From: Eledone cirrhosa
Lineage: Eukaryota
Direction of reading: 5' to 3'
Assembly (NCBI GenBank): GCA_964016885.1
Contig: OZ024752.1
Location: 45,446,001-45,510,000, forward strand
DNA: 64,000 bases
The notes beneath the pieces are model-generated. The model was not told the origin of the DNA. It made no database searches and worked only from the letters and a program-made list of their open reading frames with translations. Positions 9,957-50,670 of this stretch are shown here, piece after piece (position 1 is the first letter of the stretch; each line of letters opens with the position of its first letter). The translations under genes were made by a program, and so were the position numbers.

Positions 9957-10408
9957 GATATTAAATAAATGGAAACTATATTTATAAAACCATATTTATT
10001 TCATTATATATATTTCAGGGATAACATATTAACAATATGCTATGCTTTCCTCAGACAAAATACAATATAGACAGTTTTATAGATAAATAGATTTGACATA
10101 CCGTTCAACATCGACTTGTATTTGAAAAGTTGATTTGGCAAATCAACTTTTCAAATACAAGTCGATGTTGAACGGTATGTCAAATCTATTTATCTATAAA
10201 ACTGTCTATATTGTATTTTGTCTGAGGAAAGCATAGCATATTGTTAATATGTTATCCCTGAAATATATATAATGAAATAAATATGGTTTTATAAATATAG
10301 TTTCCATTTATTTAATATCATAAATATACTCCAAATACTTGTCGAGTGCTTTTATATCAGTTATAAATATTTACTAGTTATAACCCAACAATTTAAATAT
10401 AACTTTCC
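9957..10408. mobile_element. Family A fold-back element (Penelope-like pLTR type) in (TA)n
   Basis: Inverted arms 9957-10137 / 10139-10319 with a 1-nt spacer, ~90-nt tail, (TA)n on both sides. Homologous to 18771-19091, 22249-22691 and 49601-49850. Confidence 0.75.
10214..10280 (+). ncRNA. Type I hammerhead ribozyme motif (mirror copy on - strand near 9996-10062)
   Basis: Stem I tattttgt, core CTGAGGA (10222), stem II ..TAGCATAT/ATATGTTA.., GAAA (10260), palindromic stem III ATATATAT, AUA site, then atgaaata closing stem I. Confidence 0.7.
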
Positions 10409-10735
10409 ATATATATATATATATATATATATATATATATATATATATATATATATTCTCAGCAATATATATATATATATATATATATTCTCAGCAATAT
10501 ATATATATATATATATATATATATATATATATATATATATTCTCAGCAATATATATATATATATATATATATATATTCTCAGCAATATATATATATATTC
10601 TCACAGCAATATATATATATATATATATATATATATATATATTCTCAGCAATATATATATATATATATATATTCTCAGCACTATATACATATATTCTCAG
10701 CACTAATATATATATATATATATATATATATATAA

Positions 10736-10946
10736 AGTATAAAGAAAGTGCTCAAGCACAGAAATGCTATAAAGATAGCTTATAAAATAGAGTGAAGACC
10801 CTTTAAAAGACAGCATCTGGGAAATATGGGGTTCAATTCCTCATCGCGCCCAATGGCAACTTCTTTTTCCGTCTTTTAAGGGTCTTAACCCTATTCTATA
10901 AGCTATCTTTATAGTATTTCTGCCCTTGAGCACTTTCTTTATACTT
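10736..10946. mobile_element. Fold-back element with tRNA-like spacer
   Basis: Imperfect ~75-bp arms 10736-10811 / 10871-10946. Spacer contains GGGGTTCAATTCCTCATCGCGCCCA (T-arm/B-box-like). Confidence 0.55.
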
Positions 10947-11213
10947 ACATATATATATACTTATATATATATATATATATATTTATGTATATATATATAT
11001 ATATATATATATATATATATTTATGTGTGTATATATATATATATATATATATTTATGTGTGTATATATATATATATATATATATATATTAAATAGAGTAT
11101 TTTCAATGCTATAGAAATAACATTAGCAAAAACACAGCCCTGCATATATGGAAGACATGTGCTGCGTATGGCTGTGACAGCATGCAATGAAAACAATAAT
11201 AATAATAATAATA

Positions 11214-11620
11214 AAACCAGATATTATATTCAAAGAATACAAAGAAAATAATCTCCGCAGACGACAATATATCTCCCAAGGAAATAGAGAAACTCTCCAA
11301 ATATAAAGATCTAGAGATAGAAATAACTCAAATGTGGTTGATGAAGATAGAAACAATACCTATAATTATAGGTGTTCTAAGAATGATAAAGACACACAGA
11401 CAAATACATAACCAAAACCCCAGGACTCACAAATATATACAGCATACAGAAAATAGCACTACTAGGCATTGTACATATATTACAAAGAGTACTATCCACA
11501 CCACTAAAAACTACACTGCACATACCCAAGGCACAAGAACTGTGCTCGGTAGTGCAGTGATAATGCACACAATAATAATGATGATAATAATAATAATTAT
11601 AATAATAATATTAATAATAA
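11214..11620 (+). pseudogene. R4/Dong-like (restriction-like endonuclease) LINE 3' end in (TAA)n
   Basis: KYKDLEIEITQMW..IETIPIIIG is typical of the R4/Dong RLE C-terminus. (TAA)n on both sides. Confidence 0.7.
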
Positions 11621-11621
11621 T

Positions 11622-11913
11622 GATTTCTTTATTAACCACAAGGGTTTACACAAAGTAGACATTAAGGACAATACAGGACAAAAAAGGACGGTACAAATGG
11701 GTATTTCTGCGTGTAAAAAAAAAACAAAAAAAACAGAGGATGTAACAAAAAAAGAAAGAACAATGAAAAATTCTCCAATAGGGGGGAGACTTCTGAAGGC
11801 CATCGTGGAGAAAGCCCATTAAAAAAAAGCCACGGTGACCCTGACCACCAGGGCAAGTGCCCTCTCCCAGTTTTCCACCTTCAATTTACAGGCATATCCT
11901 CAGAGTAGGTCCA
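11622..11913 (-). mobile_element. 3' end/UTR of an L1/Tx1-like LINE
   Basis: Reverse complement shares ACTCTGAG...AGGGCACTTGCCCT..TCAGGG with the end of the 41600-42350 fragment. Confidence 0.5.
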
Positions 11914-12977
11914 ATGATGATGATAATAATTAGATTGAGTAGTTCTTGCCTTGTAAACCAAGTAAAATTTCAATTAAAATGTATGATACTTTGTGAGATA
12001 TTCTGTTTTTATTTTATGTTATTATGCTGTGTGTTGACAGAATTAGTAGAGCAACAGACAAAACACTTTGTGGAATTTAGTTATAGCTCTTTTTCTGAGG
12101 TCAAATTTGCCTTTCACCTTAACAAGGGTTAATATAATAAAGTATCAGTAATGCACTGGGGTCAATTTAATTGATTTTCACCTCCCTCAAATTTGTTGGC
12201 CTTGTGGCTAAATTAGAAACCATTATTTTAGCTATTATTTCAAAACAGAGATTAAGACAATGAAATTTACGGGGAGATGACTTTTTATTGAAAACAACAG
12301 GTATAGTAGAATTTGAAAATATTGTTAAACCAGCAACAACAACATCAACAATATCAATATCAACAAAAACAACAATGTAAAACAAAGAAAATAAAAGTAT
12401 GGATAATATTTAATTCAAATGAAACGAAAGCAAATGTTAACATTCTAACATTCTATAAACAGAAAACCCTTAAAGGGGTGAAAGCAGAAATTTCTTGCTT
12501 AAAATTTAAATCTATGCTAATAATAAATATATATATATATAAGATTATATATATATATATATAAGATTATATATATATATATATATATATATAAGATTAT
12601 ATATATATATAAGATTATATATATATATATATATATATATATAAGATTATATATATATATATAAGATTATATATATAAGATTATATATATAAGATTATAT
12701 ATATATATATAAGATTATATATATATATATATATATATATAAGATTATATATATATAAGATTATATATATAAGATTATATATATATAGACATTTATTATA
12801 TCAACAAAATATATACTTACAAATACACGTGTTTCATTGGTTTTGCCGAATTGACATTGTCAAATCGTTAGTCCAGTCATCTTATATATATATGTATGTA
12901 TATATATATATATATGTATATATATATGTGTGTGTGTGTGTGTGTGTGTGTGTGTGTGTGTGTGTGTGTGTGTGTGT

Positions 12978-13155
12978 ATCCATATGTGGTTGACGACAGC
13001 TGAGAGAAAGGAGTACTCAATACTGAAGTAGAGTTTTAATATTCAATAAACAAGTGAGTCTTGTTACTCTAGAGTTTCCCCTGTTTATCACAGGGTCTAA
13101 ACAGGGGAAACTCTAGAGTAACAACACTCACTTTTTATCCTTAACAATATTGAAT
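12978..13155. mobile_element. Family E fold-back element
   Basis: Arms ~13052-13087 / 13098-13133. GAAACTCTAGAGTA (13107) is a hammerhead-type GAAA, palindromic stem III and GUA site. Flanked by (TG)n and (TA)n. Confidence 0.62.
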
Positions 13156-48830: not shown

Positions 48831-48985
48831 ACGATGTGTGAAATTCAAGGAGGGGGGGCTATCGTAAGCCGAAACCGCTTGACGCCGCGGTCGGGCTTTC
48901 ACACATCTCTATACCCAACTCTACATTTCTCGATGTATCGAGTACTCACATGATTAGTAGTCTCTTCGGTCTCAGCACCGCAGAC
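48831..48985 (+). mobile_element. GC-richer element with degenerate hammerhead and 3' bulged hairpin
   Basis: Stem I GATGTGTGAAA/TTTCACACATC, stem II GGCT/AGCC, GAAA, stem III ACCGC/GCGGT, GUC site. The CTGANGA box is not intact. Flanked by (GA)n and (TA)n. Confidence 0.55.
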
Positions 48986-49600
48986 TCTATCTATCTATAT
49001 ATATATATATATATATATATATCAGGCTTATAGGAATTAGCTATTGTTTGTATAATCCAAAGAAGCCATGTTTGTTGGGGAGATAAATATATATGACTAC
49101 TAGCTTTAGTTGTCTATCTTAGAAGATTAACTAAAATATTAGTAGCAAGGAAGTAGTATATATTCTCTCTTGTGTAATAACAATCACGGCCAGCAAGTAG
49201 TTTCCTTTCAACGATGTTGTGTGAGAGGAGGGACATCCACAGAAAACCTACCATTCGCTAAAATATTTCATCGTTGTGTCAAATATAATTACTAATTTAT
49301 CAGGTAATGTCGCACTTCATACAACCACTTAAATATTTAATTATATTTATAATTGTGATAAATGTCTTTATTAGCTATTTTTGTCCGTTATGAAGAAGCT
49401 CTAATTTATAAGAAACAGTCAACGAAGAAGATAGAAATATATTGAATAATAATAATAACAACGACAACTGCTCGTAATTGACATTGTATGTTTATTTATG
49501 TTTCTTCCTCCGAGTTGAATAAGTCTGTGTTTATATATACGATGAACGTGTGTGTGTATGTGTATATATATATATATATATATATGTGTGTGTGTGTGTG

Positions 49601-49850
49601 TAGAGGTTATATTTAATTTGTTGGGATACAACAAGCAAAATATTTTTAGAACTGATATAAAGCACTCAACAAATTATTGGAGTAAATATACAATATATTA
49701 ACAAATGGAATATTTATTTATAAAACTAATCTATATTATAGTTTATCTGATGAAAGCGCACCATAGTTTGCTTTGGTGGCCCTTGTAATATGTATAATGA
49801 AATAAATATGGTTTTATAAATATAGTTTCCATTTGTTAATATATTGCGTA
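49601..49850. mobile_element. Diverged family A element with decayed hammerhead
   Basis: Same tail and arm sequence as the other family A copies. CTGATGA at 49747, stem II CACCA/TGGTG, GAAA mutated to GTAA. Confidence 0.65.
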
Positions 49851-49931
49851 TATATATTTATATATATATATACATACATATATATATTATTCAAAATATT
49901 AATAAATGAAGACGTTCACATAATCAAAATA

Positions 49932-50003
49932 TATGTTTTATTATATATATTTTGGAGGTACTATGCTGTTTTTTCAATACGTCCTCATCAGATAAAATAC
50001 ATA
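49932..50003 (-). ncRNA. Decayed hammerhead motif related to family A
   Basis: Minus strand: tatgtattttat-CTGATGA-GGAcGTATTG..TAGTACcTCC-AAAA-TATATA-TA-ataaaacata. GAAA has become AAAA. Confidence 0.55.
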
Positions 50004-50264
50004 AATTGATGTACGACATTCCTCAACTGTCTTGATGGTTTAATTTCAGTATTGACAGTGATTTATTACAACAAAACTCTATGTTTATATATATATATTA
50101 TATATTATATATATATATATATATATATATATATTATATATATATATATATATATTATATATATATATATATATATTATATATATATTATATATTATATA
50201 TATATATATATATATTATATATATATTATATATATATATATATTATGTATATATATATATATGT

Positions 50265-50498
50265 ATCATCATCCACGCTAGCATGGGTTAGACGGGTTGT
50301 CCTGTTGAGGGCAGTGTCTGGTCGGCTGACCATGCCTTGCTCATACAGGAACTGATTTGGCTTGATTTCTACAGCTGGATGCCCTTCTTAACACCAACCT
50401 CATTTACAGTGAGTGCTGGGTGCTTTGTCCGAGGCGCCTACATGTCCACTCTACAGTGTGGGCTGGGTGCTTTTTTGCTGTGGCACCTCCACGACCAC
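50265..50498 (-). mobile_element. RTE-tailed SINE-like element
   Basis: CTAACCCATGCTAGC...(TGA)n 3' end and AAGGGCATCCAGCTGTAGAAA. Near-identical copy at 60578-60797. Confidence 0.7.
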
Positions 50499-50546
50499 AT
50501 ATACATGTATATATATATATATATATATATATATGTGTGTAGAAAA

Positions 50547-50670
50547 GCTTCTACAGGACTAGAACTGTTTCATTCGTGAGAAATCATCAGGAAGCTCCTG
50601 ATGATTTCTCACGAATGAAACAGTTCTAGTCCTGTAGAAGCCATTTCCCATATTAAACATGATATTTATA
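50547..50670. mobile_element. Fold-back element with hammerhead core at its centre
   Basis: Arms 50547-50592 / 50596-50641. CTGATGA(50598)-TTTCTCACGAAT-GAAA(50617)-CAGTTCTA-GTC. Confidence 0.62.

What the first reader, a model, noticed from the sequence alone, without database searches (positions are those of the whole stretch)
9957..50670. About a dozen fold-back inserts with the same asymmetric architecture
Seen: at 9957, 12978, 15701, 17241, 17845, 18771, 19487, 21797, 22052, 22249 and 50547 the layout is (TA)n - short arm - variable centre - long arm - 30-90 nt tail - microsatellite. The outer ends are fixed within a family while the centre differs between copies (family A: 1-nt spacer, 4-nt spacer, or unequal truncation). 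Arms share copy-private variants, e.g. GATAGTAAACAAATGG at 18861 mirrored at 19073-19088. Inference: both arms were copied from one template during insertion, with two priming events meeting head-to-head. MITEs would instead have symmetric ends and constant centres.
Basis: partly seen in the sequence, partly recalled or inferred. Interest (0 to 1): 0.72.

Follow-up and report, generated by a model that had tools for sequence, protein, structure and literature searches.

The report
Fold-back Penelope retrotransposon stumps, octopod
Twelve short mirror-image inserts sit in TA repeats of an octopod genome, all with a one-sided tail and most with hammerhead-ribozyme motifs; they are likely stumps of Penelope-like retrotransposons, each likely built by two copying events that met head to head, so the design is a known one, though a tail hairpin shared with distant animals would mark where copying starts.

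Summary
The palindromes are real: all 11 listed sites plus a twelfth (49602-49848). The host is an octopod. They match the published layout of Penelope-like element (PLE) insertions: an inverted 5'-truncated end-copy, a one-sided tail and (TA)n targets. Four complete type-I hammerhead motifs occur (0.03 expected), all inside inserts and pointing outward; their layout resembles Hydra-clade PLEs. Site 19487 looks Naiad-like; 15701 and 17241 are unassigned. Public reads show high-copy families with fixed ends, varying centres and depth falling toward the centre, so a pure assembly artefact is unlikely; these exact junctions were not independently confirmed. No RT/endonuclease ORF was found, so membership rests on cis features. 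Possibly new: a tail hairpin (RCTC...GAGYVCT; 17 found, 1.9 expected) starting a few bases past the tailless end. It recurs in published Hydra consensi and retrieved the same fold-back design from another animal. The scan reported similar PLE stumps earlier in a shark.

The parts
9957..10408 (.). Family A insert: tailless arm 9957-10137, 1-nt centre, tail arm 10139-10319, tail 10320-10408. Hammerhead core boxes at 10222(+) and 10054(-), with helix II too poorly closed to pass the descriptor
12978..13153 (.). Insert: tail 12978-~13045 with hairpin at 13034(-), arms 13046-13087 and 13098-13138, 10-nt centre on the tail arm. 3' half of a hammerhead (helix II, GAAAC, palindromic helix III, GTA); first core box cut off at the centre
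   Evidence: hammerhead half read by eye against File S2 of PMC8557442
15701..16404 (.). Insert: tail 15701-15793, arms 15794-16034 and 16164-16402, 129-nt centre. No hammerhead found; family unassigned
17241..17411 (.). Insert: arms 17241-17306 and 17307-17372, no spacer, 38-nt tail. No hammerhead in the 66-nt arms; unassigned
17841..18047 (.). Family B insert: tailless arm 17841-17918 including the 37-nt centre, tail arm 17919-17955, tail to 18047 with hairpin at 17963(+). Hammerhead with U4 changed to A at 17909-17869(-)
18770..19089 (.). Family A insert: tail 18770-18854, tail arm to 18946, tailless arm 18947-19089 including the 58-nt centre. Complete hammerhead 18991-19040(+)
19487..19688 (.). 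Insert: 42-nt tail, arms 19529-19609 and 19611-19688, 1-nt centre. Permuted half-core (GAAAC 19 nt before CAGCTGATGA, 19622-19656) like published octopus Naiad 3' ends
21797..22035 (.). Family C insert: tail 21797-21858 with hairpin at 21854(-), arms 21859-21923 and 21973-22035, 49-nt centre on the tail arm holding the first hammerhead box; did not pass the full descriptor
22054..22757 (.). Family B insert: arms 22054-22118 and 22126-22192, 7-nt centre on the tail arm. Its tail (22193-22211 and about 22700-22757) is split by the family A insert
   Evidence: unsplit tail in other copies (loose ends before 22707)
22249..22686 (.). Family A insert nested in the TA-rich loop of the family B tail: tail 22249-22333, arms 22334-22509 and 22514-22686, 4-nt centre. 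Complete hammerheads 22436-22388(-) and 22589-22637(+)
49602..49848 (.). Decayed hammerhead
50547..50662 (.). Insert: arms 50547-50592 and 50596-50641, 3-nt centre, about 20-nt extension. Complete hammerhead 50590-50552(-) with the Hydra-type U/U flank on helix II

Best explanation
These twelve head-to-head palindromes with a one-sided tail sit in TA repeats, most carry hammerhead-type motifs, and they are likely extremely 5'-truncated insertions of Penelope-like retrotransposons (mostly Hydra-like, one Naiad-like), each likely made by two target-primed reverse transcriptions that were joined at their truncated ends. Inferred steps: a PLE RT-endonuclease complex nicks both strands of a (TA)n site; one 3' end primes at the far end of the tail and the other a few bases before the tail hairpin; both cDNAs stop within 30-370 nt; their ends are joined at 0-4 nt of microhomology or filler; host repair completes the duplex. 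Near-perfect palindromes (5 of 12) would arise when both cDNAs run to the same 5' end of one RNA. Shown here: the anatomy, motif enrichment and orientation, helix II covariation, high copy number, variable centres and nesting. Not shown: the enzyme, ribozyme cleavage, the priming events and single-RNA origin. My odds: PLE origin about 0.9, two-priming route about 0.65.
For: (1) The layout equals the published PLE layout: inverted 5'-truncated copy, tail at one end, (TA)n bias (PMC8557442; PMC3846280). (2) Complete type-I hammerhead motifs: 4 observed vs 0.03+-0.17 in 100 shuffles; 4 of 4 inside inserts, which cover 5.5% of the window; all point away from the centre. With one core mismatch, 6 vs 0.14. 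(3) RNAalifold recovers helices I and II unprompted; 7 of 20 pairs show two-sided changes; 0 of 500 shuffles reach this and slid controls are lower. (4) The motif layout at 50547, family B and 12978 matches the Hydra-clade rows of File S2. (5) Reads: X1 depth falls from 1.57 million to 13,923 along family A and from 237,822 to 464 along family C toward the centre; other copies join the arms at many positions (22092>22125, 22100>22157, 22113>22157 in a second sample; 22115>22169 and 22368>22646 in raw reads of another study); tailless ends run into (TA)n (2,403 and 4,493 X8 reads). (6) The unpaired centre belongs to the tail arm in 3 inserts and to the tailless arm in 4, as expected of two independent cDNAs. 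(7) An anole PLE protein cleaves and extends both strands and starts at two sites that bound the tail (PMC11167929). (8) The tail-hairpin pattern retrieved the same fold-back design at 2 distinct sites in another animal.
Against: No RT or GIY-YIG ORF is linked to any insert and no genome was held. Rfam gave no hammerhead match (top 150 of 748 rows seen; all rows). The descriptor was set after I had seen the inserts and File S2; the earlier one gave only 3 vs 0.53+-0.64. Single hammerheads fold no better than shuffles (z -1.0 to +0.6, 6 of 6). 15701 and 17241 show no hammerhead. Nine tails are 60-93 nt, longer than the published 30-40. The covariation set is 5 sequences. Depth is not copy number, and copies under 85% alike drop out. 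No read or contig spans a window junction, so these exact centres are unconfirmed. Later deletions at palindrome centres could blur which arm owns the centre.
Confidence: 0.7

Rival explanations
1. PLE stumps, but the second arm is made by snap-back self-priming: one cDNA folds onto itself and copies itself back.
For: Proposed for rotifer PLEs from palindromes at inverted junctions (PMC3846280 Discussion). 5 of 12 centres here are 0-4 nt. It explains arm identity directly.
Against: A copy made from a tail-primed cDNA leaves the loop on the tail arm, and a tailless cDNA cannot supply a tail. Yet 4 inserts (18771, 49602, 17845, 50547) have the centre on the tailless arm. The model may still hold for the symmetric class.
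Confidence: 0.22
2. MITE or Foldback/Galileo-type DNA transposons with decayed or deleted ends.
For: Long inverted arms, no ORF, TA targets. The 10735 palindrome has symmetric ends.
Against: Ends are unequal in 12 of 12 inserts and the tail end is fixed within families. Centres vary in the window and in reads, depth falls toward the centre, and hammerheads with covariation point outward.
Confidence: 0.04
3. Fold-back read chimeras or assembly artefacts at microsatellites.
For: No read or contig spans a window junction. The 9957 arms are nearly identical. Illumina libraries can also produce fold-backs (own knowledge).
Against: Arms differ within most copies (88-98%). Ends are fixed across dispersed copies, and one insert is nested in another's tail. 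Arm-to-arm joints occur in contigs of two samples and raw reads of a separate study, and the same design occurs in another animal's contigs.
Confidence: 0.02
4. A short non-autonomous PLE-like RNA (retrozyme-like) of fixed length is what moves, rather than truncated copies of a long autonomous element.
For: No coding sequence lies beside any insert. Animal retrozymes are proposed to be non-autonomous PLE derivatives (bioRxiv 10.64898/2026.07.22.740005).
Against: Retrozymes are tandem head-to-tail repeats and these are not. 5' ends are ragged, and reads continue 5' of the window's family B copy (2,497 X8 reads with loose ends before 22123).
Confidence: 0.25

Closest known systems
EN+ Penelope-like elements, Hydra clade (Craig et al. 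2021, PMC8557442; includes Hydra-1_Obim from Octopus bimaculoides)
   Same: (TA)n targets; type-I hammerhead near the 3' end with a U/U or unpaired flank on helix II and a palindromic helix III. The tail hairpin is seen by eye in Hydra-2_Amil and Hydra-2_Ajap, 43 and 38 nt past the cleavage site (30-56 nt here).
   Different: No ORF in the inserts. Tails of 60-93 nt. No similarity to Hydra-1_Obim's 3' end seen by eye. Family A has AUA cleavage context and a long helix II; family B has U4 changed to A.
Penelope/Poseidon insertions with inverted pLTR and tail (Adineta Pen2a, PMC3846280; anole PAc, PMC11167929)
   Same: Head-to-head inverted 5'-truncated end-copy, palindrome or short overlap at the junction, tail on one arm only, AT-rich targets.
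   Different: The published examples enclose an ORF or captured DNA and have 30-40 bp tails. These are 115-700 nt double stumps.
Naiad PLEs of Octopus (Naiad_Obim, Naiad_Ovul)
   Same: Site 19487: GAAAC 19 nt before CAGCTGATGA (27 of 42 positions identical to Naiad_Ovul, by eye), (TA)n target, 42-nt tail.
   Different: Downstream sequence differs, so it is a separate family. The protein order cannot be tested.
LINE-1 twin priming (recalled, not from a call)
   Same: Two primed cDNAs joined at microhomology give an inverted insertion.
   Different: L1's second primer copies an upstream, different part of the RNA, so no palindrome forms. Here both arms copy the same 3' segment.
MITEs and Foldback elements
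   Same: Short, non-coding, long inverted arms.
   Different: Unequal ends, variable centres, ribozyme motifs, 5'-truncation gradient.

Membership tests
Penelope-like element (EN+) | ORF with telomerase-like RT and GIY-YIG endonuclease | tested here: inconclusive
   None in the window; inserts are too short to hold one and no genome is held
Penelope-like element (EN+) | Inverted 5'-truncated copy joined head to head | tested here: met
   12 of 12 inserts are inverted pairs; orientation is set by the hammerhead motifs where present, which point outward
Penelope-like element (EN+) | 3' tail on one end only | tested here: met
   12 of 12; 38-42 nt in two, 60-93 nt in nine, about 20 nt in one; published 30-40 bp
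Penelope-like element (EN+) | Hammerhead motif in the terminal repeat | tested here: met
   Complete in 18771, 22249 (two), 50547; one core change in 17845; partial or decayed in 9957, 12978, 21797, 22052, 49602; none in 15701, 17241; Rfam negative
Penelope-like element (EN+) | Variable 5' truncation with fixed 3' ends | tested here: met
   Alignments; depth gradient, joints and loose ends in four runs
Penelope-like element (EN+) | Partial tandem (direct pLTR) copies | not testable with these tools
   Needs long copies; none in the window
Hydra clade | C-terminal endonuclease without CCHH, DKT and RWK motifs | not testable with these tools
   No protein available
Hydra clade | Canonical hammerhead near the 3' end and (TA)n insertion | tested here: met
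   shared with other PLE clades, so not diagnostic alone
Naiad (site 19487 only) | N-terminal endonuclease and CxC motif | not testable with these tools
   No protein available
Naiad (site 19487 only) | No canonical hammerhead; half-core in the 3' UTR | tested here: met
   1 match vs 0 in 100 shuffles (pattern written after seeing the match); published ends
MITE | Terminal inverted repeats that reach both ends | tested here: not met
   One arm extends by a tail in 12 of 12
MITE | Constant length and interior within a family | tested here: not met
   Family A centres 1, 58, 4 and 116 nt; B 37 and 7 nt; more in reads
MITE | Fixed short target-site duplication | tested here: inconclusive
   Hidden by (TA)n flanks
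Non-LTR retrozyme | Head-to-tail tandem units, each with a hammerhead | tested here: not met
   No such array among the tandem repeats; inserts are inverted pairs

The most novel reading that the evidence does not exclude
Hydra-type PLEs share, from octopods to cnidarian-like hosts and sea cucumbers, a tail hairpin (RCTC...GAGYVCT) that binds the RT-endonuclease and sets both priming sites. A dimeric enzyme copies one RNA twice from opposite nicks of a (TA)n target, so each tiny palindrome is a frozen record of one insertion, and thousands of them let the PLE mechanism (two primers, same RNA, join chemistry) be read from a genome.
Probability: 0.35. Interest if true: 0.62.

Novelty: new member of a known kind. 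Interest (0 to 1): 0.4.

Why it matters
The architecture is known, so the finding does not reveal a new class of element. Its value is practical and mechanistic. Craig et al. name the origin of PLE inverted structures, tails and microsatellite bias as an open problem. A genome with about one ORF-less double stump per 5 kb in this window offers a large natural data set to decide between two-primer and snap-back models. The conserved tail hairpin is a concrete candidate for the RNA signal that fixes the two start sites, testable in the existing in vitro PLE assay. Such stumps would also be easy to mislabel as MITEs or miRNA precursors: Rfam's best matches on them were sub-threshold miRNA models.

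Tried and rejected
No genome held. Rfam: no hammerhead family among the rows shown; miRNA hits are hairpin or TA noise. First hammerhead descriptors were weak (5 vs 0.35; 3 vs 0.53). Six-frame reading and motif scans found no PLE protein remnant; the region upstream of the solo motif at 57278 had no Pfam RT or endonuclease match. A homologue search with the RD3-like exon found nothing. A family A 32-mer was absent from metagenome contigs and a family B 19-mer from viral contigs. The core-plus-tail pattern in viral contigs gave 100 loci, 8 with a GAAA box downstream and none that looked like a hammerhead by eye; treated as background. 5 of the 8 metagenome hits had no inverted arm and no core (L007 is the same sequence as L003 and was not re-aligned). 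No RNA holder listed: no evidence either way on expression. Earlier-finding searches by place and by sequence were empty. MITE, artefact and tandem retrozyme readings were considered and set low.
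Full report
OBSERVATION. The window is AT-rich animal DNA dense in TA microsatellites. Its TMEM187 gene (58135-59004, minus) is 88% identical to Octopus bimaculoides and 83% to Argonauta hians, so the host is an octopod. No whole genome was available. Masked self-BLAST and arm alignments show inverted arms at all 11 listed sites and at a twelfth, 49602-49848. The local inverted-repeat count was 15 against 0 in 30 of 30 shuffles; the 15 include some inverted SINE-like pairs. 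Three families have several copies: A (9957, 18771, 22249, 49602), B (17845, 22052, tail-only piece at 5730) and C (21797, single arm at 1989). Within a family the tailless end and the tail end are fixed and the centre differs. Tails are 38-42 nt (17241, 19487), about 20 nt (50547) or 60-93 nt (nine inserts). The family A copy at 22249 sits inside the TA-rich loop of the family B tail of 22052; other B copies have this tail unbroken.

The unpaired centre belongs to the tail arm in 21797 (49 nt), 12978 (10) and 22052 (7), and to the tailless arm in 18771 (58), 49602 (116), 17845 (37) and 50547 (3). It is 0-4 nt and unassignable in 9957, 17241, 19487 and 22249, and unassigned in 15701 (129 nt). 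Ownership was read from sister copies for A, B and C and from hammerhead continuity for 12978 and 50547. In 7 of 7 copy pairs both arms of one copy share 2-38 states absent from both arms of the other, with no discordant split; within-copy differences in 18771 and 22249 lie almost all at the junction. But the quoted variant is common in the genome (22676 A>G in 6,700 of 7,101 X8 reads; mirror 22349 T>C in 9,607 of 10,939), and within-copy identity is no higher than between-copy identity in family C. So the arms come from one subfamily; one molecule is an inference.

WHAT THEY ARE. The arms hold hammerhead-ribozyme motifs. A descriptor following the layout of File S2 of PMC8557442 finds 4 complete type-I motifs against 0.03+-0.17 in 100 shuffles, all within the inserts (5.5% of the window) and all reading away from the centre. 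Allowing one core change gives 6 against 0.14, 5 of them in inserts. This descriptor was written after I had seen the inserts; an earlier one gave 3 against 0.53. On four family A copies and a solo motif at 57278, RNAalifold predicted helices I and II unprompted; 7 of 20 pairs change on both sides, which no shuffle of 500 reached, and slid controls are lower (five related sequences only). Rfam does not recognise the motifs and single motifs fold no better than shuffles. Minimal PLE hammerheads are described as weak and probably dimeric (PMC4209133). The U/U flank of helix II at 50547 and in family B, and the palindromic helix III at 50547 and 12978, match Hydra-clade rows of File S2 by eye. 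Site 19487 instead has GAAAC 19 nt before CAGCTGATGA, as in the 3' ends of Naiad_Obim and Naiad_Ovul. 15701 and 17241 show neither.

The overall layout is the published one for PLEs: 5' truncation, an inverted truncated copy at the 5' end, a 30-40 bp tail at one end and a (TA)n bias in Naiad and Hydra clades (PMC8557442). Rotifer PLEs show head-to-head junction palindromes (PMC3846280). The anole PLE protein cuts and extends both strands, is predicted to be a dimer, and starts at two RNA sites that bound the tail (PMC11167929). No RT or endonuclease ORF was found beside any insert, so membership rests on cis features.

INDEPENDENT READS. Four public runs were laid on 21790-22900 at 85% likeness: X1 and X4 (one sample, possibly the window's source), X2 (second sample, same study) and X8 (RAD reads of another study, same species label). 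X8 laid 49,571 of 12.5 million records. X1 depth falls toward the centre in families A (1,574,501 to 13,923) and C (237,822 to 464), as 5' truncation predicts; depth is not copy number and diverged copies drop out. Listed joints link the family B arms at many places (for example 22092>22125, 22100>22157, 22109>22160; 22113>22157 in X2; 22115>22169 in X8) and the A arms at 22365>22644 and 22368>22646. Only the best-supported rows were shown (15 of 219 joints), many sides are under 30 nt, and RAD counts may include duplicates. Loose ends at the tailless positions are (TA)n. No record spans a window junction, so the design is confirmed for the families, not for these exact sites.

THE TAIL HAIRPIN. 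Long tails begin with a hairpin closed by RCTC and GAGYVCT: 17 matches in the window against 1.9+-1.3 (maximum 5) in 200 shuffles (pattern drawn from the tails and the published ends). It is present in 4 of 4 A tails, in 17845 and the 5730 piece, in 21797 and 12978, and in several solo pieces. One match (53600) overlaps the U6atac-like gene and is probably chance. It starts roughly 4-11 nt beyond the tailless end and 30-56 nt past the predicted cleavage site. Folding z-scores are -3.1, -2.6, -0.6 and -1.6 for the four tested. Among the six new Hydra consensi of File S7, read by eye, two carry the motif 38 and 43 nt past the cleavage site, one carries a variant, and three end 36-47 nt past it. 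As a prediction test, a pattern of GAAAC plus the family C hairpin, without the first core box and without any palindrome, was run on metagenome contigs. Of 8 loci, 3 (two distinct sites, since L005 and L008 are the same) are head-to-head palindromes of one family with different centres, whose tailless arm ends a few bases before the hairpin. L005/L008 has the CTGATGA box (helix I only 2 bp); L004 is truncated below it. L004 encodes animal-type GPCRs, so the host is an animal (cnidarian-like is my inference). The other 5 look like chance. [quoted passage not shown]

MECHANISM. Best model: both strands of a (TA)n site are nicked; one end primes at the tail's far end and the other just before the hairpin; both cDNAs stop early and are joined head to head. 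Centres on either arm fit two independent cDNAs, whereas simple snap-back from a tail-primed cDNA leaves the loop on the tail arm only. The 5 of 12 near-perfect centres need either snap-back or two cDNAs ending at the same RNA end; PLE RT has no RNase H (own knowledge), so one RNA could be copied twice. Later deletion or gene conversion could blur both signals. All enzymatic steps are inferred.

PAPERS SEEN. PMC8557442: passages, section 11, supplement parts 1, 2, 52, 53 and search passages. PMC11167929: parts 1-2 of 4. PMC4209133: parts 1-2 of 4. PMC3846280: passages and Discussion. bioRxiv 10.64898/2026.07.22.740005: part 1 of 5, supplements not seen. PMC13282606 (PLEs recently active in O. 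vulgaris) and PMC8969392: passages.

VERDICT. A real and dense set of PLE double stumps from at least eight families, a known design in a host group known to carry Hydra and Naiad PLEs. New member of a known kind; interest 0.40, resting on the tail hairpin and on the use of such stumps to test the insertion mechanism.

Noticed in passing
window 10735-10946: TA-flanked palindrome with 77-nt arms, a 59-nt centre and symmetric ends; the tail-hairpin motif lies inside the arms (match at 10793, minus). Possibly a PLE stump with two equal ends, or a MITE.
   Followed up: partly
window 12790-12880 (minus); 57260-57378 (plus); 21440-21500 (plus); 1986-2095 (minus): Single-arm pieces with hammerhead-like motifs next to TA runs; likely PLE stumps without a second arm. 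In the 21280-21715 piece a tail-like hairpin lies upstream of the motif, which may be a partial tandem.
   Followed up: partly
window 5646, 5745, 25997, 29971, 42825, 48627, 48918, 55972: Further tail-hairpin matches; 5745 and 25997 are tail-only pieces of families B and C directly after (TA)n.
   Followed up: partly
window 22200-22248 and 22687-22708: The TA-rich loop into which family A inserted appears on both sides of the insert, like a roughly 20-nt target duplication that later slipped.
   Followed up: no
window 53514-53629 (plus): U6atac snRNA match, 74.5 bits against a gathering score of 33, just upstream of an RD3-family exon (53686-53946, Pfam E 5.6e-22).
   Followed up: no
window 58135-59004 (minus): Single-exon TMEM187 gene, used to place the host among octopods.
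   Followed up: yes
window 11215-11580 (plus); 36921-37650 (plus): Decayed non-LTR retrotransposon pieces: an R4/Dong-like 3' end before (AAT)n (label recalled, no Pfam support) and an RT fragment (RVT_1, E 1.4e-4).
   Followed up: partly
window 40485-41475, 45420-45570, 48370-48570, 51700-52136: Many copies of a SINE-like repeat, some as inverted neighbours; a different system from the fold-back inserts.
   Followed up: no
window 35553-36568, 43341-44776, 47738-48180, 45832-47557: Homogeneous minisatellites of 48, 65 and 48/96 nt and a 1.7-kb (ATC/ACC)n array.
   Followed up: no
L004:1226-1414: A second palindrome (192 nt, 87.5% alike) on the same animal-type metagenome contig.
   Followed up: no
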